The position numbers were made by a program, and so were the translations under genes. This document shows, piece by piece, positions 54,436-64,000 of a stretch of DNA of 64,000 nucleotides. The notes under the pieces are model-generated. The model saw only the letters and a list, made by a program, of their open reading frames with translations. It was not told the DNA's origin and did not search any database. The stretch's first letter is position 1; the number at the start of each line of letters is the position of its first letter. Origin of the DNA: a virus (taxonomy: Duplodnaviria > Heunggongvirae > Uroviricota > Caudoviricetes); IMG/VR virus record IMGVR_UViG_3300047323_000428, positions 21,208-85,207 of that record, one strand, 5' to 3'.

Positions 54436-55275
54436 TTACGCCGCTGCTTCCAGATCGCCCAGCAGATCGTCCAGCTCGCTGTCGAGCGCAACGCTTGCCG
54501 CCGACGGACCCGCTTCGACCTTCGTGCCGCGCATTTCCAGCTCGCGCAACTCGTCGTCGCCATCGAGCTCGGGTGCTGCCAGCGCCTTCGTCTTCGGCAC
54601 GTCGCGGTTCTCGGCGGCCGGCAGAAGACCTGCGACCGACGAAATTGCCGTCAGTGCGCGGCGCGTCTGCTCTTCGTTTTCCTGCGCGACGTATTCGTCC
54701 AGGTTGTGCAGCTTTGCCTGGATGCCCGCCGGCAGCGTGTGCTTCTTCGGCGAAATCTGAACGGAATACTTGGTGTTCAGACCCTTGCCGTCGCGCTGGA
54801 TCACGACGATTTGCGGGGTGGAGGCGTCGAACATCTGCGGACCCCACTCTTCGATCGTGTCGACCAGTTGCGTGAACGCCGACTTGCCGAGTTCGTAGAT
54901 CACCGGCTCTTCCTTCGTCGGGCCGTCGAGGTCGAGCACGTTCAGGACGAAGCCCTGCTTGCTCTTGGCGCCCTTGAGCGCTTCCACGGTTTCGTCGTCG
55001 GTCGTCACACGCATGGCCTTATTCAGACCGTCGCACGCGGCGCACGGCTTGCCGAAGGTGGCGTCCGCACACGGGATCACTGCCTGGATTTCACCTGCTG
55101 CGTTCTTGATGAAGTGCTGACCCCACTCGTGGAAGAACGTCTCGCGGTCTTCCTCGCGCCAGCCACCGAGAATCACGAGGCGGTTTGCGCCCGGACGGGG
55201 CTTGACGGTCTTTTCCTTCGGCTTGAGCGCGGCCTTCTTTTGCTTCATCAGGGCCATCAGCTTGCTCGTATCCAT
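54436..55275 (-). CDS. gp32-like single-stranded DNA-binding protein
   Basis: Zinc-site pattern H-x14-C-x8-C-x2-C (HFIKNAAGEIQAVIPCADATFGKPCAAC) resembling T4 gp32 His64/Cys77/Cys87/Cys90, plus an acidic C-terminal tail. ATG at 55273-55275 with an AGGAA ribosome-binding site. Confidence 0.6.
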   Translation of the reverse strand: MDTSKLMALMKQKKAALKPKEKTVKPRPGANRLVILGGWREEDRETFFHEWGQHFIKNAAGEIQAVIPCADATFGKPCAACDGLNKAMRVTTDDETVEALKGAKSKQGFVLNVLDLDGPTKEEPVIYELGKSAFTQLVDTIEEWGPQMFDASTPQIVVIQRDGKGLNTKYSVQISPKKHTLPAGIQAKLHNLDEYVAQENEEQTRRALTAISSVAGLLPAAENRDVPKTKALAAPELDGDDELRELEMRGTKVEAGPSAASVALDSELDDLLGDLEAAA

Positions 55276-55365
55276 CTTTGTTCCTTTTTCAGTTTGGTAG
55301 TAGAAAGTTGCCTTTTGGACTTCGCGGTGGAATATCACCGCTTCATCGTTTCAGCATGCTAATTA

Positions 55366-55383
55366 TAGTCAGCTTTGACTATT
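55366..55383 (-). promoter_or_regulatory. PDM copy (TAGTCAGCTTTGACTATT), with TATAAT immediately downstream on the minus strand
   Basis: 87 nt upstream of the SSB gene. Confidence 0.8.
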
Positions 55384-56565: not shown

Positions 56566-59500
56566 TTACGACAGAATCTCCGCCGTCTTCTCGAACACCG
56601 CCGCGAGCACGTCAGCCTTCGCCGGGTCAAAGAGGACTTGCTGCGCGTTGATACCGCACACAACGCTGGCGTCCAGCGTCTTGTCGAAGATCACCTTGCC
56701 AGCAAGCTCGGCCGTGCCGCCCTTGATGCCCGGCACAAAGTGCTTGATCGTGGCCGAGCCGAGCGCGACGATCACCGCCGGCTTAATGAGCTCCAACTCG
56801 CGCTGCAGGAAGCCCTTGCAGTTGTTGATCTGGCCGTTGGAGAGGAACTTGTCGTTCTTCTTCGCCTTGACGAGCGACGTGTAGTAGCCCTCTGCCGGAT
56901 TCAGCCCCGCCGCCTTGATCGCTTCCTTGATGAAATCCGCGGCGTCGCCTTCGAGCATCTTGTCGGCCTTCTCCTCCTGCCAGCTTGGGCAGTCGGACAC
57001 CACCATGAACTTCACCGTGTGCTTGGCGCGCACCGTCGGGTGAGGCTGTCCCGCGAGGTCGCAGCTTTCGCAGCCCTTGTATTCCTGCACGAGCGAAATC
57101 ACCTTCGCCCGCAAGAACTTCTCCTTCAGGTCGGTCGTGCGATCGGCCTTCACCGCGTCGATAATCAGCCCGCCCATGAGTTCGGTCTGGTCACGCCGGC
57201 GGTCCAGGTGTCGCGCGGGCAACGATCCGGGTTTAATCGGCACGAGCGCACCGACCTTGTCCAGCACATCACGCACCTTCGAATTGACTTTCGAGCCCTT
57301 CGCCTCTGTGATCTTGAGGAAGTGCTCCTCGTCACGGAAGGCGCCGCCCTCGAGATTGCGCAGCTCCACCATCCGCTTGGCCGTGTTCTCGGAGATCCCC
57401 TTCACTGCCGAGAATGGCGCGAGCAGGTGGTTGTCGTCGGGGATGGTGAAGCGCTCGCGCGAGAGGTTGATATCGGGCGGCAGCACCTCGATCCCGTATT
57501 CACGCGCTTCCTCGACGAGCTTGGGCAACTTGTCCTCGTCCACGATCGACATACAGGCAGCGAAGTATTCCGCCGGGTAGCGCACCCGCACCCAGAGCGA
57601 CCAGTAGCTAATGATCGAATACTCGACCGCGTGGCTCTTGTTAAAACCGTAGCCTGCAAAGGCCTCGATCTTGTCGAAGATGCGACCCGCGACCTCTTCG
57701 TTCATGCCGGACGTGGAGTGACAGCCATCGACCCACTTCTGTCGCATTTCGGCCATCTTGTCCTTGTCCTTCTTGCCCATCGCTTTCCGCAGGTGGTCCG
57801 CTTCCGCCTTCGTGAAACCTGCGAGGTCGACCGCGACCTGCATGACCTGTTCCTGGTAGACGATGACGCCATAGGTGTCCTTGAGCGCCGCCTCCATGTT
57901 CGGGTGGTCGTAGCTGATCGACTTCACGCCCTGCTTGATCTGGATGAAGTCGTCCATCAGGCCCGAGTCCATTGGGCCCGGTCGATAGAGCGCGGTGGCC
58001 GCTGTCACGTCATCGAACGTAAGCGGCCCACCCATCGCCAGATTCCTGAGCAGCGCCTTCATGCCGCCTGAGTCGAACTGGAACACACCCGTCGTGTCGC
58101 CCGCGCCAAATGCCTGCATGACGTCCGATTCACCCAGCGGAATGTCGAGGTAGTTGACCTTCACCCCGTGCCGCTCTTCGATGTAGCTCTTGGCGATCTC
58201 CAGCACATCGAGCGTGGAGAGCCCCAGAATGTCCATCTTGACCAAGCCCCAGTCCTCGACGACCCGCTTGTCCCAGTTCACCACCGGCGACTCGCCACGC
58301 GTTTCAACGACCGCACGGTTCACAAGCGGCTCGCCCGCGACCACGATACCCGCTGCGTGCTGGCCGAAGTTGCGCATGGCGCCTTCGAGCTTCAGGGCGT
58401 GGCCCCACACCTCCGGGTGCTCGTCGCGGAACTTCTCCAGCTCGGGCACGGCTTTGGCCGATTCCGTGAGCGTGAGGGAATTGCCGTGCTCTTTGGGCAC
58501 GAGCTTGGTAGCGGTCAGTTCGAGCGGCTGCATGCCATGCACGCGGCCGGTGTCGCGTAGCGCGGAGGCAGAAGCGAGCGTCGAATAGTTGGAGATGCCG
58601 GCGACGCGATCCTTGCCGTATTTGGCGGTCAGGTATTCGATCACCAGATGGCGCTTGCTTGACATGAAATCGAGGTCGGCGTCGGGCAAGTCCAGACGCT
58701 CGGGGTTGATGAAGCGCTCGAACAGGAGATTGAACCGGATTGGATCCACATCGGTGATGCCAAGCAGGTAAGCGACGAGCGAGCCGCCCACCGATCCGCG
58801 GCCTGGGCCGACGATGATGCCGTTTTCCTTCGCCCACATCACGAGGTCTTCCACGAGCAGGAAGTAGCCCGCGAAGCCCATTTTCTTGAGCACCGACAAC
58901 TCGTATTGGAGTCGCTCCTTGTAGACGGGCATGTCGGCCGCCGTCGGCATGTAACCGAGCACGGCCACCGAGAAGCGCCGCTTCCAGCCTTCGAGACACT
59001 TCTTGCCGAGCGCCATGAACTCGTTTTCGGCCATCTGCGGCAGCGACACCGGCTGCTTCTTGAACTCGTAGCCACAGGCGGCCGCGATCTTCTCGACGTT
59101 CTGCAGGCCGGCGAGCCAGAGCTTCGGTTCGTTCACGCCATAGAACTTGACCGCGCGAGCGTGCGCGGCCTTCATCTTGTCGACCAGGTGCTTCGGTTCG
59201 TGAAAGCCGAAGTCCTTCACGTGCTGAATCGAGCGGAACTTCGTGTCCATCTTGTCGCCGTCGGCGATCACCTTCAGCACCGCGAGCGTGTCAGCGTCCT
59301 CGTTCTCCCGATAGTAGGTCGGGAACGTGATGATCGGCTGAATGTCGAGGATGCGCGCAATCGTCAGCGCCTTTGCGTTGAGCGTGTCGTAGAGCGGCGT
59401 GTCGATCGGCACGAGCTCCACGAAGAAGTCGTCGGCGAAGAAGTCCTTGAGCTTTCGCGCGTGCGCTTCGGCTTGCGGGTGATGGAACAGGCCGTTGTAG

Positions 59501-59931
59501 TCGCCGGTCGTGACGACCACGCCCTCGAGCTCCAGCACGTCGTTCAGGCCCACGCGCGAGACATAGTAGAAATACTCGGGCGAATTGGCCTTCGACAGCA
59601 GCTTGATAAGGCTCGACACCCCGCGCTCGTCCTTCGCGTAGACCTTGAGCGTCACCATCGGGTTCGGCTTGTCTGCGTGCGTGTCGCCCTTCTTGGGCTT
59701 GCGGTGCGTCGGATCGTCGACCACGCGCAACTCGCAGCCGATGATCGCCTTGATGCCGACTTTCTTCGCACGATTGGCGAAGTCGACCATCGCGTGCAGG
59801 CTCATCGCGTCGGTGAGCGCAACCGACTCGTAGCCCAGCTCCTTCGCCTTTGTGACGAGTTGGTCGACCTGAAGCATCGAGCGGCCGATGGAGAAGTCGC
59901 TCCTTACGCCGAGCGCGTGCCCGAGATTCAT
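56566..59931 (-). CDS. dnaE: DnaE-type (Pol III alpha-like, PHP domain) DNA polymerase with a C-terminal UDG-like (family 4/5 fold) domain
   Basis: PHP domain at the N-terminus, polymerase core, and a (HhH)2 motif GISENTAKRMVELR. The last ~200 aa align with the family-4 uracil-DNA glycosylase fold (…CKGFLQRELELIKPAVIVALGSATIKHF…), but the GEAPG and GrPFvG motifs are replaced by SDCPSW and DKMLEG. Confidence 0.8.
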   Translation of the reverse strand: MNLGHALGVRSDFSIGRSMLQVDQLVTKAKELGYESVALTDAMSLHAMVDFANRAKKVGIKAIIGCELRVVDDPTHRKPKKGDTHADKPNPMVTLKVYAKDERGVSSLIKLLSKANSPEYFYYVSRVGLNDVLELEGVVVTTGDYNGLFHHPQAEAHARKLKDFFADDFFVELVPIDTPLYDTLNAKALTIARILDIQPIITFPTYYRENEDADTLAVLKVIADGDKMDTKFRSIQHVKDFGFHEPKHLVDKMKAAHARAVKFYGVNEPKLWLAGLQNVEKIAAACGYEFKKQPVSLPQMAENEFMALGKKCLEGWKRRFSVAVLGYMPTAADMPVYKERLQYELSVLKKMGFAGYFLLVEDLVMWAKENGIIVGPGRGSVGGSLVAYLLGITDVDPIRFNLLFERFINPERLDLPDADLDFMSSKRHLVIEYLTAKYGKDRVAGISNYSTLASASALRDTGRVHGMQPLELTATKLVPKEHGNSLTLTESAKAVPELEKFRDEHPEVWGHALKLEGAMRNFGQHAAGIVVAGEPLVNRAVVETRGESPVVNWDKRVVEDWGLVKMDILGLSTLDVLEIAKSYIEERHGVKVNYLDIPLGESDVMQAFGAGDTTGVFQFDSGGMKALLRNLAMGGPLTFDDVTAATALYRPGPMDSGLMDDFIQIKQGVKSISYDHPNMEAALKDTYGVIVYQEQVMQVAVDLAGFTKAEADHLRKAMGKKDKDKMAEMRQKWVDGCHSTSGMNEEVAGRIFDKIEAFAGYGFNKSHAVEYSIISYWSLWVRVRYPAEYFAACMSIVDEDKLPKLVEEAREYGIEVLPPDINLSRERFTIPDDNHLLAPFSAVKGISENTAKRMVELRNLEGGAFRDEEHFLKITEAKGSKVNSKVRDVLDKVGALVPIKPGSLPARHLDRRRDQTELMGGLIIDAVKADRTTDLKEKFLRAKVISLVQEYKGCESCDLAGQPHPTVRAKHTVKFMVVSDCPSWQEEKADKMLEGDAADFIKEAIKAAGLNPAEGYYTSLVKAKKNDKFLSNGQINNCKGFLQRELELIKPAVIVALGSATIKHFVPGIKGGTAELAGKVIFDKTLDASVVCGINAQQVLFDPAKADVLAAVFEKTAEILS

Positions 59932-60383
59932 GCCTGCTCCTTGATGAAGTCACGGATGCGTTTCGCCACGTCGGCAGCCTCGCCAGCTTGGTCGCTGAAC
60001 ACGTAGGCACTCTTCGTGAACAGTTCAGTCGCTTCGTGGTCTTCCAGGTCGAAAAACTTCTGCACCGCGAGCCAGCCCGTCAAGCCATCGAAATAAGGCA
60101 CGGCCTGGTTGTCGCAGCAGTCGGCGAGGAGCTTGAGGCCTTCGGCCTGAAATTCCGGCATCATCGCTGCGTGTCCGCAGGCGCACGCAGCGGTGCCACA
60201 TGCGATCGAGGTCGGGTCGACCTGCCACATTTCGCCTTCGTTCGTCTCAATGGCTTCGCCGAAGATCTTGAAGTTCTCGTGGCTGTCGGCTTCGAACCAC
60301 TCGTCCAGCTTGAACTCGGCCTTCGCCACGAACTTCTGCGCTTCGAGCACTTCGGCCAGGCGCGTCAAACGCTCCACGTTCAT
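59928..60383 (-). CDS. Hypothetical Cys-rich protein; a paralog of 36687-37175
   Basis: Shares the motif IACGTAACACGHAAMMPEF with 36687-37175. Confidence 0.5.
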   Translation of the reverse strand: MNVERLTRLAEVLEAQKFVAKAEFKLDEWFEADSHENFKIFGEAIETNEGEMWQVDPTSIACGTAACACGHAAMMPEFQAEGLKLLADCCDNQAVPYFDGLTGWLAVQKFFDLEDHEATELFTKSAYVFSDQAGEAADVAKRIRDFIKEQA

Positions 60384-60425: not shown

Positions 60426-61184
60426 TCAAGCGCGCGCAGGGGTTAGTTCGAGGCGACCGTCGTTTTCGACGGCAATGTGAAAGCGCGTCATCAGCGGGAA
60501 CACCTGCGAGACGTGCGACGAGGCGGCCGAGTCGCCCCAACCCAATTCGTCGGTGAATCGCTGCTTTAGAGCGCTTCTCGTCGCGCCACCGCTAATGAGT
60601 GCGTCGCAGACAATGCGCATGAATTCTGGCTTCGCTGTAGCGAACGGATTCGAGCCGGCCGACAAGTCTTTGCGCATTGCATCGATCAATCCGGCTTTGA
60701 TGAAGCGCGCCGCGTGCTCGGCGGCTTTCTTGGGCAACGCGGCGAGAATGGCTGCGTCGTCGTCGGTGACGGGCATCTCCACCTTCTCCACCTTCGTCGT
60801 GCGGGCGACGGGCTTTTTCGGCAGCTCGGCCTGCGTGACCGGCACGGCCGCAACCACTTCGTCCTCTTCCTGCTCCAGCATGGCGCGCGCAACGTCCGAC
60901 ACGACCGGCGCTTGACGCTCGACCTGCATCGCCTGAGCCTGTGCAAGCAGTGCCGGGCCCGGCATCGGTCCCCGCACCTTCTTCCTTGCCGCTTCGTGAC
61001 GCGCCAGCAAGTCGCGCACGTTGACCGTGCTTTGGATGGCCTCCAGCGTTTTCACCGCCTCGCCCGCGCACTGGTCGAACACACCGCACTGGCGGCACAC
61101 CTGCGAGTCGTGGCTGAAAACGCTCGCTGCGGCAAAGCACCCCGGCGCCATCGCAGGTGCCGCAACTTGAATGGACTGCTCCAT
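60426..61184 (-). CDS. Hypothetical protein with an N-terminal Cys4 cluster, encoded immediately downstream of the sigma-factor gene
   Basis: Contains CFAA...CRQCGVFDQC. Confidence 0.5.
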   Translation of the reverse strand: MEQSIQVAAPAMAPGCFAAASVFSHDSQVCRQCGVFDQCAGEAVKTLEAIQSTVNVRDLLARHEAARKKVRGPMPGPALLAQAQAMQVERQAPVVSDVARAMLEQEEDEVVAAVPVTQAELPKKPVARTTKVEKVEMPVTDDDAAILAALPKKAAEHAARFIKAGLIDAMRKDLSAGSNPFATAKPEFMRIVCDALISGGATRSALKQRFTDELGWGDSAASSHVSQVFPLMTRFHIAVENDGRLELTPARA

Positions 61185-61197
61185 GCTGGATATTCCC

Positions 61198-61845
61198 TTA
61201 CAGTGTGTCGATCAATTCACGCACTTCCCTGCCGGCTGCCGTGATCTCTTTGGCGCGTTCGGGCATGGTCATGCGCAAAAACTTGCAGATGAAGGAGACG
61301 TTCACGCCCGCGAAGCTCCTCATGTTCTCGCCGACGCTGCGTGCGTATTCGGCGTGAGCCTGATGCTTGGCGATTTCCTCGAGCAGCGCCTTCGGCGGCT
61401 GTGCGATCCACTCGACGATGAGCCCGGCGATCGGCGACAGGCGCTCGACGACCCGCTCCATTGCGTCGGCGGCCTCGCGCTGCTCCATCCACTGCTCCGG
61501 CGTGATCGCCTGGCAGGCAATGCGCTCGACCGCGTGCATGTCGTCATCGGTGGTCAGCTCCTCGAAGCTGCGCACGCCGTTGGTGATGCGCTCCTCCTCG
61601 ACGTCGCCCGCAACACGGTTCAGCTTGTTGTAGGCGCTGCGCGCGAAGTAGGTATTGAATTCGAACCCTTTTGTCGGGTCGAATTTCTGGTGGGCTTCGA
61701 GAAAGGCGATGCGAACATCGCCAAACACGTCGTCATAGTCCAATGCGGCACCCATCCCCTGGAGTCGTCCGTAGCACTTGCGTGCGATCGTGTGGACGAA
61801 CCCCAGGTTGCCCGCATAGCACTCGGAAACGTCGGCGCTATACAT
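61198..61845 (-). CDS. Phage-encoded sigma-70-family protein (recognisable region 2 only)
   Basis: YDDVFGDVRIAFLEAHQKFDPTKGFEFNTYFARSAYNKL aligns with sigma70 region 2.1-2.3 ([37 protein letters not shown]). No obvious region 4 is present. Confidence 0.6.
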   Translation of the reverse strand: MYSADVSECYAGNLGFVHTIARKCYGRLQGMGAALDYDDVFGDVRIAFLEAHQKFDPTKGFEFNTYFARSAYNKLNRVAGDVEEERITNGVRSFEELTTDDDMHAVERIACQAITPEQWMEQREAADAMERVVERLSPIAGLIVEWIAQPPKALLEEIAKHQAHAEYARSVGENMRSFAGVNVSFICKFLRMTMPERAKEITAAGREVRELIDTL

Positions 61846-61857
61846 TTGGCTCCTCTC

Positions 61858-61875
61858 TAGTCAACTTTGACTGTT
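61858..61875 (-). promoter_or_regulatory. PDM copy (TAGTCAACTTTGACTGTT), 13 nt upstream of the sigma-factor ATG
   Basis: On the minus strand it reads AACAGTCAAAGTTGACTA, followed by GAGAGGAGCCAA and then ATG. Only the ribosome-binding site fits between the motif and the start codon. Confidence 0.8.
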
Positions 61876-61882
61876 ACGCCGA

Positions 61883-63085
61883 TTAGCCGAAGATGCGCTG
61901 AGCCAAGCCGTCGACAACCTCCCGGTCGACTTTGGAGAGCTTGTTGATGAAGGAGAGTTGAATCCCCTGGCGCCACGAACCGCGCTTCACGCCGATCTTT
62001 GCCGCGTAAATCAGCGTGCGAGGCGAAATGACGTCGCTGATCTTGGCGCCGTCATACGATTCACGAACAAGCGCGGCGAAGTCCACGAGCTTGTCGGCGT
62101 CGTCAGCGCGCAGCCCGCAGCGCTTTTGCAGAATCAGGCTCTCGAACTTCTTCGCCATGTATTGCTTGTGAACCACCATGCCGAAGCGGTCGTAGTTGGC
62201 GCTGTTCTGAAGCGACGTGCCCTGATACAGACCGGTTTCGTCGCCCGAGCCGTTCGTGTTGCCCGTTGCGGCGAAGCGGAAGTTCGGGTGCGGCTTGATG
62301 ATGCGGTTTTCGGCGTCCGCTTCCTTGATGACGAGCGGCTTGCCTTCGAGCACGGCCTGATAGACCGACAGCACGCTCGGCAGCGCAAAGTCGTATTCGT
62401 CAGCGGCGTAGACCCAGCCGTTTTTCATGGCGAGCGGCAACGGTCCCAGCTCGAACTCGGTTTGGCCGTTCTTCACAACCCACTGGCCCACGATGTGGCT
62501 TTCTTCCGTGTTGACCGTATGCTGCACGCGGATCATGGCGCGGCCGGTGCGAGCGCAGATTTGCTCGTAAAGCTCCGACTTGCCCGAGCCCTTGTGGCCC
62601 CACACGTAAGTCGGAATGTTGAGCTCCAGCGCCAAGATGACGTTCTTGAGTTCGTCCACGTCGTAGACATAATCGTCCGAGACGGTCGGCACCAGGTCCG
62701 GGTTTTCCGGGTTGGTGATGACGCTGATGGGGATCGCTTCGCCCTTAGCCGAGAGCGCAGCCTTAATCTTGCCCAGGTTGAAGGTTTCGTGGAAGGCGGC
62801 GCGGGTTGGCGTGCCCTTCGGAATCAGTGCCGACACGCTTGCGAGCGCAGCACCCGTGCCCGCCATCTCGACGGCGGCCGGCGCAGGCGCTTCGGCTTCA
62901 GCGGCCTTTGCCGCGCGCTTCTTGTCCAGTTGCTCTTGCGCCAGCGCCGAGAGAATCGACGCACCGGGGAACTTCGTCTGATACTCGCTGATGGACAGTT
63001 CCGGGTGGTCTTGCTTGAGGTGCGACTGGATCACGTGGACTTGCGCGCCGCAGATTTTGCATTCGATCTTGTTCGTGTCGGCCAT
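61883..63085 (-). CDS. MoxR-family AAA+ ATPase (CobS/CbbQ/NorQ-like) with an N-terminal zinc-finger-like segment
   Basis: Walker A WGHKGSGKSE and Walker B AADEYDF. The N-terminus carries CKICGAQVHVIQSHLKQDH. Confidence 0.75.
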   Translation of the reverse strand: MADTNKIECKICGAQVHVIQSHLKQDHPELSISEYQTKFPGASILSALAQEQLDKKRAAKAAEAEAPAPAAVEMAGTGAALASVSALIPKGTPTRAAFHETFNLGKIKAALSAKGEAIPISVITNPENPDLVPTVSDDYVYDVDELKNVILALELNIPTYVWGHKGSGKSELYEQICARTGRAMIRVQHTVNTEESHIVGQWVVKNGQTEFELGPLPLAMKNGWVYAADEYDFALPSVLSVYQAVLEGKPLVIKEADAENRIIKPHPNFRFAATGNTNGSGDETGLYQGTSLQNSANYDRFGMVVHKQYMAKKFESLILQKRCGLRADDADKLVDFAALVRESYDGAKISDVISPRTLIYAAKIGVKRGSWRQGIQLSFINKLSKVDREVVDGLAQRIFG

Positions 63086-63161: not shown

Positions 63162-63198
63162 GGTAGGGAACGCTAGTCACTTTTGACTGTTCCCTACC
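63162..63198 (-). promoter_or_regulatory. PDM copy (TAGTCACTTTTGACTGTT) embedded in a 10-bp perfect inverted repeat GGTAGGGAAC ... GTTCCCTACC
   Basis: Same architecture as 37678-37711. Lies between the vWA gene and the MoxR gene start. Confidence 0.8.
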
Positions 63199-63209
63199 GA
63201 AAACAACAA

Positions 63210-64000
63210 TCACCCGATCAACAGGTGGCGCAGCTCCTTCATCACGCGCGCTGGCAGTTCGGTCACGTCATTGAGGACCATGTTGCGCTTGTAGAAGTGG
63301 GTCACTTCGCTGGACTCGATGCCGATGCCTACGACGCGCACACCCGCCTTCTCGATCTGCTCCACCGTCTTTTTAAGGTGGTGGCGAAGCGCGGAACCGC
63401 CGTAGTAGGCAGCGGGTGCGCCATCGGACAGGACGATCATGATCTTGCCCGCTTCACGCCGAGCCAAGAGGCGGCGCGCGGCCACTTCGATCGACTCGCC
63501 ATCGACGTTGTTGGCGAGCGACGACGAATGCGGCAGCCAGGCGAAGCGGTTGCGCGTTTCCGTGCTGGTCATGCGGTCGTTGAAGCCTTTCAGAATCGGC
63601 ATGTAGAGGCTTTCCACCCGCGAGAAGCTCTTGCCCTTGCCAAGCAAGGCGAGCTCCTTCTCCATGCGCTCCCGATCTTCGATCGGACCAGTGGTGAAGC
63701 ACACCACTTCGCACTTGATGTTGAGGCGATCGAGCACCGATGCGAGCGCATACGCTGCCTTCGCTGCAGTGTGGATCTTCGAGCCGGACATTGAGCCCGA
63801 CATATCGACCACGAGTTCGACGGCCACGTCCTTGCTCGTCGATTCGTGCTTTTTACGGAACACGCGCGAGTCGCCCACCGCCAGGCGCGAGAGATTGCCC
63901 GCATGCAGCCGACCGGAGCGACGGCCGTTCTCCCACACCGACAGCGATCGGGCGGAAATGGCGCGCTCCAGATCCTTTTGCAGCGGCCCGACCATGTGGT
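63210..64000 (-). CDS. von Willebrand factor A domain protein (CobT-like partner of the MoxR ATPase); probably 5'-truncated by the window end
   Basis: MIDAS motif VVDMSGSMSG and IMIVLSDGAP. The ORF reaches the window edge. Confidence 0.7.
   Translation of the reverse strand, partial: HMVGPLQKDLERAISARSLSVWENGRRSGRLHAGNLSRLAVGDSRVFRKKHESTSKDVAVELVVDMSGSMSGSKIHTAAKAAYALASVLDRLNIKCEVVCFTTGPIEDRERMEKELALLGKGKSFSRVESLYMPILKGFNDRMTSTETRNRFAWLPHSSSLANNVDGESIEVAARRLLARREAGKIMIVLSDGAPAAYYGGSALRHHLKKTVEQIEKAGVRVVGIGIESSEVTHFYKRNMVLNDVTELPARVMKELRHLLIG

What the first reader, a model, noticed from the sequence alone, without database searches (positions are those of the whole stretch)
60426..61875. Phage sigma-70-family protein with region 2 only, followed by a Cys4 protein
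61198-61845 aligns convincingly with sigma70 regions 2.1-2.3 but shows no region 4.
- That parallels T4 gp55 and similar late sigmas, which need only a -10-like element plus co-activators.
- The gene itself is preceded by a copy of the dispersed motif only 13 nt from its ATG.
- The gene immediately downstream (60426-61184) has an N-terminal C-x16-C-x2-C-x5-C cluster. It could be a zinc-binding co-activator like T4 gp33 or an anti-sigma-like partner.
- Together they are the best candidates for the apparatus that reads the dispersed motif.
Basis: partly seen in the sequence, partly recalled or inferred. Interest (0 to 1): 0.6.

Follow-up and report, generated by a model that had tools for sequence, protein, structure and literature searches.

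The report
Divergent phage-plasmid sigma factor plus Cys4 winged-helix protein
A phage-plasmid carries a real but unusual sigma factor gene followed by a metal-binding DNA-binding protein, but comparison with relatives indicates that the two are not a dedicated pair and are probably not what reads the repeated DNA motif.

Summary

The element is a TrfA/ParA phage-plasmid related to RHEph10, the A. baumannii phage-plasmids and SSU5. The conserved operon is XRE repressor | CobT-CobS-sigma-Cys4-x-DnaE.

- **Cys4 gene without sigma:** Pseudomonas phage nickie has it but no sigma, and SSU5-like elements have a ~65-aa Cys4-only miniprotein. It is therefore an older resident of the CobS-DnaE gap, not a dedicated sigma partner.
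- **The motif:** it is an AGTCA-N4-TGACT palindrome, with 31 sites in 64 kb, all outside ORFs. Across seven elements a dispersed palindrome is present wherever the XRE repressor is, not wherever sigma or the winged helix is.

The sigma factor stands. Its role as motif reader is unproven and now less likely.

The parts
61198..61845 (-). Gene for a 215-aa divergent sigma-70-family protein
   Evidence: Pfam Sigma70_r2 at E 1.4e-7, above the gathering score. TIGR02937 scores 41.9 bits against a 42.9 cut-off. phrog_3741 and phrog_351 hits. The family has 627 representatives, and the 150 listed are of similar length.
61579..61845 (-). Sigma domain 2 (residues 1-89; regions 2.1-2.4)
61504..61578 (-). 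Flexible acidic linker (residues 90-114)
   Evidence: pLDDT below 50 for residues 90-113. Variable in the family alignment.
61204..61500 (-). Family-specific helical C-terminal domain (residues 116-214). Its first two helices resemble region 4.1; no region 4.2 helix-turn-helix is detectable.
   Evidence: Five helices, block-mean pLDDT 68-92. S137 and P150 are nearly invariant in 126 members. Weak alignment to SigA 4.1. 0 of 126 members hit r4. hhalign against RpoE aligns region 2 only.
61858..61875 (-). Copy of the dispersed motif AACAGTCAAAGTTGACTA, 13 nt upstream of the sigma ATG
61850..61853 (-). Shine-Dalgarno GGAG of the sigma gene, between the motif and the ATG
   Evidence: Read directly.
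60426..61184 (-). Gene for a 252-aa Cys4 plus winged-helix protein (phrog_3616)
   Evidence: phrog_3616 at E 3e-50. 37 homologues. Homologues confirmed by hhalign in RHEph10 gp046, A. baumannii p107, a Cupriavidus plasmid and nickie gp102.
61068..61139 (-). Invariant metal-site cysteines C16, C30, C33 and C39 (C-x13-C-x2-C-x5-C)
   Evidence: Invariant columns in A2. Same spacing in five distant relatives and in SSU5_051. Weak Pfam WhiB hit (E 0.16, 6 of 37 members at E<=1). Weak similarity to the eS27 zinc ribbon (E 0.06).
60444..60626 (-). Winged helix-turn-helix domain (residues 187-247). The 'SSHVS' motif sits at the start of the putative recognition helix.
59928..60383 (-). 151-aa ORF between the Cys4 gene and DnaE; its stop overlaps the DnaE start
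   Evidence: phrog_889 at E 7e-5. Relatives have small ORFs of 58-111 aa at this place.
56566..59931 (-). DnaE-type polymerase with a C-terminal UDG-like domain; downstream end of the conserved module
   Evidence: Translation. Synteny and Pfam domains of the orthologues.
61883..63085 (-). CobS/MoxR-type AAA+ ATPase directly upstream of sigma
   Evidence: AAA_5 and CbbQ_C hits, plus an N-terminal ROS_MUCR-like zinc finger at E 0.0027. phrog_249.
63175..63188 (-). Motif copy upstream of CobS, lying inside a larger inverted repeat and just downstream of a terminator-like hairpin after CobT
   Evidence: Terminator-like hairpin at 63227-63211.
63210..64000 (-). C-terminal part of CobT (VWA); the gene runs off the window end
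   Evidence: CobT_C at E 1e-43. The full 669-aa gene is seen in the near-identical contig L064.

Best explanation
The window comes from a roughly 111-kb phage-plasmid of a Burkholderiales-type host. In the near-identical contig, TrfA, ParA and an XRE repressor lie just beyond the window end.

**The sigma-like protein (215 aa).** It is a genuine but divergent sigma-70-family factor. It has a canonical domain 2, a disordered linker, and a family-specific C-terminal helical domain that keeps at most a region-4.1-like beginning. It lacks a recognisable -35-reading helix-turn-helix. The gene sits in the first operon next to the immunity region (small gene-CobT-CobS-sigma-Cys4-x-DnaE). I infer that it is made as soon as that operon is de-repressed, binds host core RNA polymerase through domain 2, and redirects it to element genes. 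Its promoter specificity is not established.

**The downstream protein (252 aa).** It has an invariant Cys4 metal site at the N-terminus (Zn or Fe-S, not decided) and a C-terminal winged helix. It is an older component of the CobS-DnaE gap than sigma:
- it occurs without sigma in phage nickie;
- it occurs as a Cys4-only miniprotein in SSU5-like elements.

It is therefore more likely a DNA-binding accessory of the replication/early module than a dedicated sigma co-activator or anti-sigma.

**The dispersed motif.** It has a palindromic core, AGTCA-N4-TGACT. It is best explained as the operator of the conserved XRE-family repressor, laid over or next to promoters. This would be a stoperator-like, genome-wide silencing arrangement. 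RNA polymerase carrying host sigma-70 or the element's own sigma would start at or just after it.

**Shown:** domain identities, folds, synteny, phyletic pattern and motif statistics. **Inferred:** core binding, timing, and who binds the motif.
For: **Sigma**
- Pfam r2 is above threshold, and 124 of 126 family members hit r2 while none hits r4.
- The family profile against PDB sigma factors gives E 2e-16, with a weak 4.1-like second stretch.
- The family has 627 representatives; the 150 listed are of similar length and mostly aligned end to end.

**Context**
- The order CobT-CobS-sigma-Cys4-(small)-DnaE recurs in RHEph10, A. baumannii p107, a Cupriavidus plasmid and three metagenomic relatives, each with a repressor nearby and several with an integrase, ParA, TrfA or RepC.
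- None of the ten largest window proteins is a phage RNA polymerase.

**Cys4 protein**
- The four cysteines are invariant.
- A homologue exists in nickie (hhalign E 2e-19), where no sigma homologue is found at E<=10 in the six-frame translation of the whole genome.
- SSU5_051 and an unannotated pJN2-26 ORF carry only the Cys4 domain.

**Motif**
- There are 31 sites, all outside ORFs, and 27 are co-oriented with the genes.
- The palindromic core is conserved in every sigma-positive relative, at about 10 times expectation in five of the six loci (RHEph10: 2 sites against 0.26 expected).
- Five copies (at most 1 mismatch) lie between the divergent XRE gene and CobT in L064.
- The XRE protein is one conserved family, with a conserved 'PN(I/V)(L/I)(S/T)MIK' stretch, probably its recognition helix, in both sigma-positive and sigma-negative elements.
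- nickie has no XRE and no motif (2 sites against 3.9 expected) and no other enriched palindrome.
- pJN2-26 has XRE but no sigma, and carries 18 copies of TAGGTAAGTACTTACCTA and 15 of AAAACAATTTGTTTA against about 0.1 expected.
Against: - The phyletic argument rests on seven elements, with only one example of each discordant class.
- nickie's Cys4 homologue differs exactly at the conserved 'SSHVS' start of the recognition helix, so it could simply have lost or changed its specificity.
- The pJN2-26 palindrome differs from the window motif (half-site GTAA against GTCA), so their homology is an inference.
- The window motif is clearly asymmetric: AAC at the 5' flank and an A-rich spacer. It is co-oriented with transcription in 27 of 31 sites, which a symmetric repressor site does not require but a promoter does.
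- Its left half, GTCAAA, is identical to the -10 element that I recall for E. coli sigma-E. This rests on memory and was not tested.
- Every sigma-positive element has GTC in the half-site, while the sigma-negative one has GTA.
- No second dispersed motif that could serve as the sigma's promoter was found in the window.
- Whether the C-terminal domain is a remodelled domain 4 could not be tested structurally, because the model could not be split.
Confidence: 0.55

Rival explanations
1. The sigma has only a functional region 2 and, like T4 gp55, reads a compact promoter without a -35 element. That promoter is the dispersed motif. The Cys4 protein is its co-activator or anti-sigma partner.
For: - No r4 hit in the whole family, and no conserved -35 element upstream of the motif.
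- The motif is asymmetric and co-oriented with genes in 27 of 31 sites, and all sites lie outside ORFs.
- A terminator-like hairpin precedes the CobS copy.
- The motif is enriched in all six sigma-positive loci and absent from sigma-less nickie.
- The GTC core is kept in all sigma-positive elements but is GTA in sigma-less pJN2-26.
- The two genes are adjacent or overlapping in all sigma-positive relatives.
- No other dispersed motif is available for the sigma to read.
Against: - The core is a 5-N4-5 palindrome with conserved half-sites and a variable spacer across clades. That is the signature of a dimeric double-strand DNA binder, not of a -10 element read as single strand.
- Sites often end only 2-13 nt before the Shine-Dalgarno sequence or the ATG, so a start site would have to lie inside the motif.
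- Five copies in both orientations lie next to the repressor gene.
- Sigma-less pJN2-26 has equally dense dispersed palindromes.
- The Cys4 gene exists without sigma, and the protein carries a winged helix.
- Similarity to gp55 is negligible.
- The sigma gene carries the motif itself, so another route is needed to express it first.
Confidence: 0.22
2. Split-sigma model. The winged helix of the Cys4 protein replaces the missing region 4.2. A dimer bound to the palindrome recruits or positions the sigma-containing polymerase, and the Cys4 site acts as a redox or metal switch.
For: - The genes are adjacent or overlapping wherever both occur.
- The winged helix is confidently predicted.
- W216, S223, H224 and V225 are invariant or nearly so in the 37 homologues of A2. 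The SH pair is kept in the four motif-bearing relatives compared by hhalign, and the tryptophan in three of them; the motif is not in nickie's copy.
- The Cys4 protein is more conserved than sigma across hosts (41% against 24% identity to the A. baumannii copies), which parallels the invariant AGTCA half-site.
- The C-x2-C-x5-C spacing is the one I recall from the Fe-S regulators FNR and WhiB, the latter being sigma-binding. This rests on memory.
Against: - nickie has the full Cys4-winged-helix protein but neither sigma nor any dispersed palindrome.
- pJN2-26 and SSU5 have dispersed palindromes but only the Cys4 stub, without a winged helix.
- The Pfam WhiB match is far below threshold.
Confidence: 0.08
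3. The Cys4 protein belongs to the replication machinery. It would be an accessory of the DnaE polymerase or the CobS/CobT AAA+/VWA pair, or an origin- or DNA-binding factor, and would have nothing to do with transcription. Sigma is an unrelated insertion beside it.
For: - The Cys4 domain always sits between CobS and DnaE, with or without sigma.
- In SSU5 the 67-aa Cys4-only ORF overlaps the DnaE start.
- As I recall, Cys clusters with C-x2-C-x5-C spacing are common in Fe-S DNA-metabolism enzymes such as AddB, Cas4 and EndoIII. This rests on memory.
Against: There is no direct evidence of an interaction. Winged helices are also typical of transcription factors. In relatives the gene overlaps the sigma gene.
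Confidence: 0.3
4. The sigma-like protein is not an initiation factor. It would be a degenerate domain-2 protein that binds core polymerase or the host sigma as an inhibitor or decoy, shutting off the host.
For: There is no detectable region 4.2. The W433/W434 equivalents are R69/S70, as read from the alignment. TIGR02937 scores just under its cut-off.
Against: The full domain 2 is well conserved, including the Y430-equivalent aromatic residue and the FDP..G.F.TY core. The protein belongs to a large family under purifying selection along its whole length. Sources annotate close relatives as sigma factor.
Confidence: 0.1

Closest known systems
ECF (group 4) sigma factors, e.g. E. coli RpoE
   Different: It scores just below the TIGR02937 cut-off. 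No r4 or r4_2 hit occurs in 126 members. The C-terminal domain has five helices, with a long third helix and a 12-residue loop where the 4.2 helix-turn-helix would be. The downstream protein has no anti-sigma domain or HxxxCxxC motif.
T4 gp55 late sigma with gp33 and the gp45 clamp
   Same: A phage-encoded, small sigma-family protein with recognisable region 2 and no canonical region 4. The candidate promoter has no -35 element.
   Different: Sequence relation is negligible: hhalign 20% probability, region 2 only. The candidate motif is an 18-bp element with a palindromic core, not TATAAATA. The neighbouring protein is a 252-aa Cys4 plus winged-helix protein, whereas gp33 as I recall it is a small flap-binding protein. 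No link to a clamp was found.
Annotated sigma factors of Rhizobium phage RHEph10 (gp045) and relatives, and phrog_3741
   Same: Same family (tblastn E 1e-7; HMM E 9e-37), same operon position, and the same downstream Cys4 gene. RHEph10-group records already annotate it as an RNA polymerase sigma factor.
   Different: Only 25-29% identity, and a different host class. I found no experimental work on any member.
WhiB-like and FNR-type Fe-S transcription factors
   Same: Cysteine spacing C-Xn-C-X2-C-X5-C. FNR likewise combines an N-terminal Cys cluster with a C-terminal winged-helix-type DNA-binding domain. As I recall, Wbl proteins bind sigma region 4.
   Different: The Pfam WhiB score is 13 bits against a 23.6 cut-off, and only 6 of 37 members reach E<=1. 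There is no GVWGG turn. The hosts are proteobacterial. The N-terminal segment also resembles an eS27 zinc ribbon, so the metal could be Zn.
Stoperators of Cluster A mycobacteriophages (L5/Bxb1 repressor)
   Same: Applies to the motif. There are about 30 short sites spread over the genome, in short intergenic gaps, oriented with transcription, plus copies at the repressor's own control region. The published description is in PMC9283540 and PMC6550527.
   Different: Those sites are asymmetric 13-14-mers bound by a monomeric two-domain repressor. Here the core is a palindrome and the candidate binder is a Cro/CI-type XRE protein. Binding was not tested.

Membership tests
Sigma-70 family | Region 2 (core binding and -10 recognition) detectable by the family HMM | tested here: met
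   PF04542 at 31.7 bits against a 24 cut-off. 124 of 126 family members hit it. The profile against PDB sigma factors gives E 2e-16.
Sigma-70 family | Domain 2 three-dimensional fold | tested here: met
Sigma-70 family | Region 4 helix-turn-helix (-35 recognition, flap binding) | tested here: not met
   0 of 126 members hit Sigma70_r4 or r4_2 at E<=0.01. hhalign against RpoE aligns region 2 only. Only a weak 4.1-like 'LSP' stretch is seen. The C-terminal domain could not be compared on its own at the fold level.
Sigma-70 family | Binds core RNA polymerase and directs promoter-specific initiation | not testable with these tools
   Needs biochemistry.
ECF sigma (TIGR02937) | Score above the curated cut-off over both domains | tested here: not met
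   41.9 bits against a 42.9 cut-off. The alignment covers model positions 4-124 of 165 only.
T4 gp55-type late sigma | Sequence relationship to gp55 | tested here: not met
   hhalign of the family profile against T4 gp55 gives 20% probability, 73 columns, region 2 only.
T4 gp55-type late sigma | Dependence on a flap-binding co-activator (gp33) and a sliding clamp | not tested
   No gp33 sequence was compared. The neighbouring protein is a Cys4 plus winged-helix protein.
WhiB-like (Wbl) proteins | Four cysteines spaced C-Xn-C-X2-C-X5-C | tested here: met
   C16-x13-C30-x2-C33-x5-C39, invariant in 37 homologues and in five distant relatives.
WhiB-like (Wbl) proteins | Match to the family model above threshold | tested here: not met
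   PF02467 at 13 bits against 23.6, covering 20 residues only. 6 of 37 members reach E<=1.
Zinc-binding anti-sigma (ZAS) factors | HxxxCxxC motif in an N-terminal anti-sigma domain | tested here: not met
   No HxxxCxxC: residue 26, four positions before C30 of the CxxC pair, is Asp, not His (C16 ... C30xxC33xxxxxC39). The protein also occurs without any sigma.
Winged helix-turn-helix DNA-binding proteins (C-terminal domain of the Cys4 protein) | a1-b1-a2-a3-b2-b3 fold superposable on known winged helices | tested here: met
Dedicated sigma partner (co-activator or anti-sigma) by phyletic pattern | Occurs only together with the sigma gene | tested here: not met
   nickie has Cys4 but no sigma in its whole genome. 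SSU5 and pJN2-26 have the Cys4 stub but no sigma.
Dispersed repressor operators (stoperator-like), for the motif | Many oriented intergenic sites plus copies at the repressor's own control region, with presence tracking the repressor gene | tested here: met
   31 of 31 sites outside ORFs and 27 of 31 co-oriented. Five copies between the XRE gene and CobT in L064. XRE presence matches dispersed-palindrome presence in 7 of 7 elements.
Dispersed repressor operators (stoperator-like), for the motif | The repressor binds the sites and blocks transcription | not testable with these tools
   Needs EMSA, ChIP or reporter assays.

The most novel reading that the evidence does not exclude
A split promoter-recognition system. 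The sigma supplies only domain 2 and a polymerase-docking C-terminal domain. A dimer of the neighbouring Cys4-winged-helix protein reads the palindromic motif in place of region 4.2. Its C-x2-C-x5-C site would be an Fe-S (WhiB/FNR-like) redox switch, coupling phage-plasmid gene expression to the host's redox or iron state.
Probability: 0.08. Interest if true: 0.8.

Novelty: new variant of a known kind. Interest (0 to 1): 0.4.

Why it matters
Phage-plasmids of the SSU5, RHEph10 and A. baumannii groups are widespread, including in clinical Acinetobacter and Klebsiella, yet how they switch from plasmid to phage is unknown.

- **The sigma.** A subset carries its own sigma factor with no recognisable -35-reading domain, placed directly behind the immunity region. 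Showing what it reads would define the lytic transcription programme of these elements. It would also add a second, independent example, besides T4 gp55, of a sigma that works without region 4.
- **The Cys4 domain.** It is conserved between CobS and DnaE across the supergroup, sometimes alone and sometimes fused to a winged helix. It is an uncharacterised, apparently core component of their replication/early module.
- **The motif.** The comparison redirects attention from the sigma pair to the conserved XRE repressor, which is directly testable.

Tried and rejected
- **megablast of 7.5 kb against phages:** no match.
- **tblastn of the Cys4 protein against phages:** no match, even though HMM and hhalign later found homologues in RHEph10 and nickie. 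tblastn is insensitive for this protein.
- **hhalign of the sigma family against single sequences of RpoE and gp55:** only region 2 aligned. A proper region 4 profile was not available.
- **Exact scan of viral contigs for the SSU5-type palindrome TAAGTAA-N4-TTACTAT:** it gave scattered single hits in unrelated AT-rich contigs and was uninformative.
- **Literature searches:** searches on RHEph10, SSU5 with sigma, and phage-plasmid with sigma found no functional study of either protein. One search failed on syntax.
- **Host sigma-70 promoter reading of TTGACT as a -35 element, rejected:** no -10 element lies at 16-18 nt.
- **RNA hairpin reading of the motif, rejected:** the stem sequence is conserved while the loop varies, which is the opposite of what RNA structure conservation gives.
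- **Search for a second dispersed motif the sigma might read:** only GGCCTAGGCC turned up.
Full report
**What is at the coordinates**

Everything here lies on the minus strand. The gene order is as follows:

| Feature | Coordinates | Note |
|---|---|---|
| CobT-type VWA protein | 63210 to beyond the window end | C-terminal part only |
| CobS/MoxR-type AAA+ ATPase | 61883-63085 | |
| Sigma-like ORF, 215 aa | 61198-61845 | |
| Cys4 ORF, 252 aa | 60426-61184 | |
| ORF, 151 aa | 59928-60383 | |
| DnaE-type polymerase, 1121 aa | 56566-59931 | C-terminal UDG-like domain |

The sigma gene is preceded by AACAGTCAAAGTTGACTA at 61858-61875. This ends 13 nt before the ATG, with GGAG in between. The sigma stop and the Cys4 start are 13 nt apart, and there is no motif copy between them.

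**The sigma-like protein**

- *Family identity.* Pfam Sigma70_r2 is hit above its gathering score (E 1.4e-7, residues 10-74). TIGR02937 (sigma70-ECF) scores 41.9 bits against a 42.9 cut-off, aligned over residues 7-142.
- *Family size.* An exhaustive profile search found 627 cluster representatives at E<=1e-3. The best 150 are about 183-284 aa, and most align over nearly the whole length. This is a populous full-length family, not a truncated gene.
- *Region 4.* Of 126 diverse members, 124 hit region 2 and none hits a region 4 model.
- *Predicted structure.* AlphaFold2 gives a domain at residues 1-89, a disordered linker at 90-113, and a five-helix domain at 116-214 with block-mean pLDDT 68-92, about 90 from residue 140.
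- *Hints of region 4.1.* The family profile against PDB sequences gives E 2e-16 for region 2. A weak second stretch aligns 'LSPlArlvvel' with region 4.1 'LSPRERDVLRL' of SigA.
- *Comparison with reference sigmas.* hhalign against E. coli RpoE aligns only region 2 (82% probability). Against T4 gp55 it gives 20%.

So region 2 is confirmed, and the absence of a recognisable region 4.2 is confirmed at sequence level. 'Region 2 only' is nevertheless wrong, because a conserved second domain exists whose relation to domain 4 remains open. The protein is closer to ordinary sigma-70/ECF region 2 than to gp55.

**The Cys4 protein**

- *The cysteines.* They are C16, C30, C33 and C39, that is C-x13-C-x2-C-x5-C and not x16. 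They are invariant in 37 homologues and in RHEph10, A. baumannii, Cupriavidus, nickie and SSU5 relatives.
- *Which metal.* The Pfam WhiB hit is far below threshold (13 bits; 6 of 37 members at E<=1). The segment also weakly resembles the eS27 zinc ribbon. The metal, Fe-S or Zn, is undecided.
- *Predicted structure.* AlphaFold2 (mean pLDDT 81) gives the N-terminal Cys4 region, a low-confidence, length-variable linker, and a C-terminal domain at 141-247 with a1-b-a2-a3-b-b topology in its last 60 residues.

**What the element is**

The same order, CobT-CobS-sigma-Cys4-(small)-DnaE, is found in several elements:
- Rhizobium phage RHEph10, where the gene is already annotated as a sigma factor;
- 104-114 kb A. 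baumannii plasmids;
- Cupriavidus plasmids;
- three metagenomic relatives.

The sigma and Cys4 ORFs often overlap, and an integrase, ParA, TrfA or RepC and a helix-turn-helix repressor lie upstream. A near-identical JGI contig (L064) extends past the window end. It shows TrfA, ParA/MipZ and a 142-aa XRE-type gene divergent from the small gene-CobT-CobS-sigma operon.

RHEph10 and SSU5 are discussed as phage-plasmid candidates in PMC7969092. None of the ten largest window proteins is an RNA polymerase, so host polymerase must be used.

**Is the Cys4 protein sigma's partner?**

- hhalign confirms homologues in RHEph10 gp046 (E 4e-16), A. baumannii (6e-58), Cupriavidus (3e-28) and Pseudomonas phage nickie gp102 (2e-19).
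- In nickie the gene lies between CobS and DnaE with no sigma. A six-frame HMM search of the whole 112-kb genome finds no sigma homologue even at E<=10.
- In SSU5 and pJN2-26 the CobS-DnaE gap holds a ~65-aa ORF that is just the Cys4 domain, 'GCFGSLIAASETG.ACL.C....C'.

The Cys4 domain is therefore the older resident of this gap, and sigma is present only in a subset. This argues against a dedicated gp33-like or anti-sigma role. It does not exclude cooperation where both genes occur.

**Who reads the motif?**

*In the window*
- There are 31 sites with at most one mismatch to AGTCA-N4-TGACT, against 1.3 expected.
- All 31 lie outside ORFs, and 27 are co-oriented with the genes.
- The consensus is (T/C)AACAGTCAAAAnTGACTA, and nothing is conserved further upstream.

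*In sigma-positive relatives*
- The palindromic half-sites are conserved at the same intergenic spots in every one, while flanks and spacer differ.
- In L064, five copies (at most 1 mismatch) in both orientations lie between the XRE gene and CobT.
- The XRE protein is one conserved family, with a conserved 'PN(I/V)(L/I)(S/T)MIK' stretch that is probably its recognition helix. It is present in both sigma-positive elements and sigma-less Klebsiella and E. coli phage-plasmids.

*In sigma-less relatives*
- nickie has the Cys4-winged-helix protein but neither sigma nor XRE. It has no motif (2 sites against 3.9 expected) and no other enriched palindrome.
- pJN2-26 has no sigma, only the Cys4 stub, and XRE. 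In 62 kb it has 18 copies of TAGGTAAGTACTTACCTA and 15 of AAAACAATTTGTTTA, against about 0.1 expected.

| Element | Sigma | Cys4 protein | XRE repressor | Dispersed palindrome |
|---|---|---|---|---|
| Window clade (window, L064) | yes | full, with winged helix | yes | AGTCA-N4-TGACT |
| RHEph10 | yes | full | yes | AGTCA-N4-TGACT (weakly enriched: 2 sites vs 0.26 expected) |
| A. baumannii p107 | yes | full | yes | AGTCA-N4-TGACT |
| Cupriavidus plasmid | yes | full | yes | AGTCA-N4-TGACT |
| L054 | yes | full | yes | AGTCA-N4-TGACT |
| L057 | yes | full | yes | AGTCA-N4-TGACT |
| nickie | no | full | no | none |
| pJN2-26 | no | stub only | yes | its own two palindromes |

Presence of a dispersed palindrome thus follows XRE in 7 of 7 elements, sigma in 6 of 7, and the winged helix in 5 of 7. 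Together with the dyad symmetry, this makes the repressor the best candidate binder. The arrangement resembles the stoperators of Cluster A mycobacteriophages (PMC9283540, PMC6550527).

*Counter-points*
- The motif is asymmetric and oriented.
- A terminator-like hairpin precedes the CobS copy.
- The half-site is GTC in all sigma-positive elements but GTA in pJN2-26.
- GTCAAA equals the sigma-E -10 element as I recall it (untested).
- No other motif is available for the sigma to read.

A composite of operator plus promoter is quite possible.

**Verdict**

- It is a genuine, divergent, uncharacterised phage-plasmid sigma without detectable region 4.2.
- It is not gp55-like by descent.
- The neighbouring Cys4 protein is a metal-binding winged-helix protein that predates sigma in this locus.
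- The claim that the pair reads the dispersed motif is weakened in favour of the XRE repressor.

Sources already annotate the sigma as such. The new points are the domain analysis, the Cys4 domain's distribution and the motif-repressor link. Interest is moderate.

Noticed in passing
window 182-63188 (31 sites, e.g. 2870, 10835, 31420, 44085, 55367, 63175); L064:5966-6626: Several motif copies sit inside larger inverted repeats (63175: GGTAGGGAAC...GTTCCCTACC; 31420: TAGCGTCA...TGACGCTA) or are followed by strong hairpins (41171, 56543, 182). In the near-identical contig L064, five copies (at most 1 mismatch) in both orientations lie between the XRE repressor gene and CobT, just outside the window.
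   Followed up: partly
L052:8194-8397 (SSU5_051); L063:9207-9386 (pJN2-26, unannotated): SSU5-like phage-plasmids encode a ~65-aa miniprotein that is only the Cys4 domain (C-x13-C-x2-C-x5-C), between CobS and DnaE and running into the DnaE start. In pJN2-26 this ORF is not annotated.
   Followed up: partly
L186 and L063 (Klebsiella phage pJN2-26): Two separate dispersed intergenic palindromes occur: TAGGTAAGTACTTACCTA (18 sites) and AAAACAATTTGTTTA (15 sites). Most copies of the second lie within about 60 nt upstream of a start codon. Each has about 0.1 sites expected by chance.
   Followed up: partly
window 61883-63085 (-), residues 4-63: The CobS/MoxR-type ATPase has an N-terminal C2H2-like segment (CKICGAQVHVIQSHLKQDH) that weakly matches the Ros/MucR zinc finger (E 0.0027). 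The ATPase may itself be tethered to DNA.
   Followed up: no
window 56566-59931 (-): The DnaE-type polymerase III alpha is fused to a C-terminal uracil-DNA-glycosylase-like domain. In one relative (L056) the gene is split by an HNH endonuclease insertion.
   Followed up: no
window about 54570-55366 (-) and the motif at 55367: A gp32-like single-strand DNA-binding protein gene (start MDTSKLMALMKQ...) was missed by my crude gene caller. Its leader after the motif contains GCTGAAACGATGAAGCG, conserved in L054 and L057 upstream of their gp32-like genes. It may be a translational operator.
   Followed up: no
window 14104, 17340, 17456, 22956, 24776: The 10-bp palindrome GGCCTAGGCC occurs five times, all in the 14-25 kb stretch of small ORFs. 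It is the only other repeated intergenic word found.
   Followed up: no
L060:33841-34677 (nickie gp063): Phage nickie has a second protein whose C-terminal part matches the winged-helix half of the Cys4 family (HMM E 2.5e-9), so the domain has paralogues outside the CobS-DnaE gap.
   Followed up: no
window 59928-60383 (-): The 151-aa ORF between the Cys4 gene and DnaE is itself cysteine-rich (CGTAACACGH, CCDNQ) and matches phrog_889 of unknown function. Relatives have shorter ORFs at this place.
   Followed up: no
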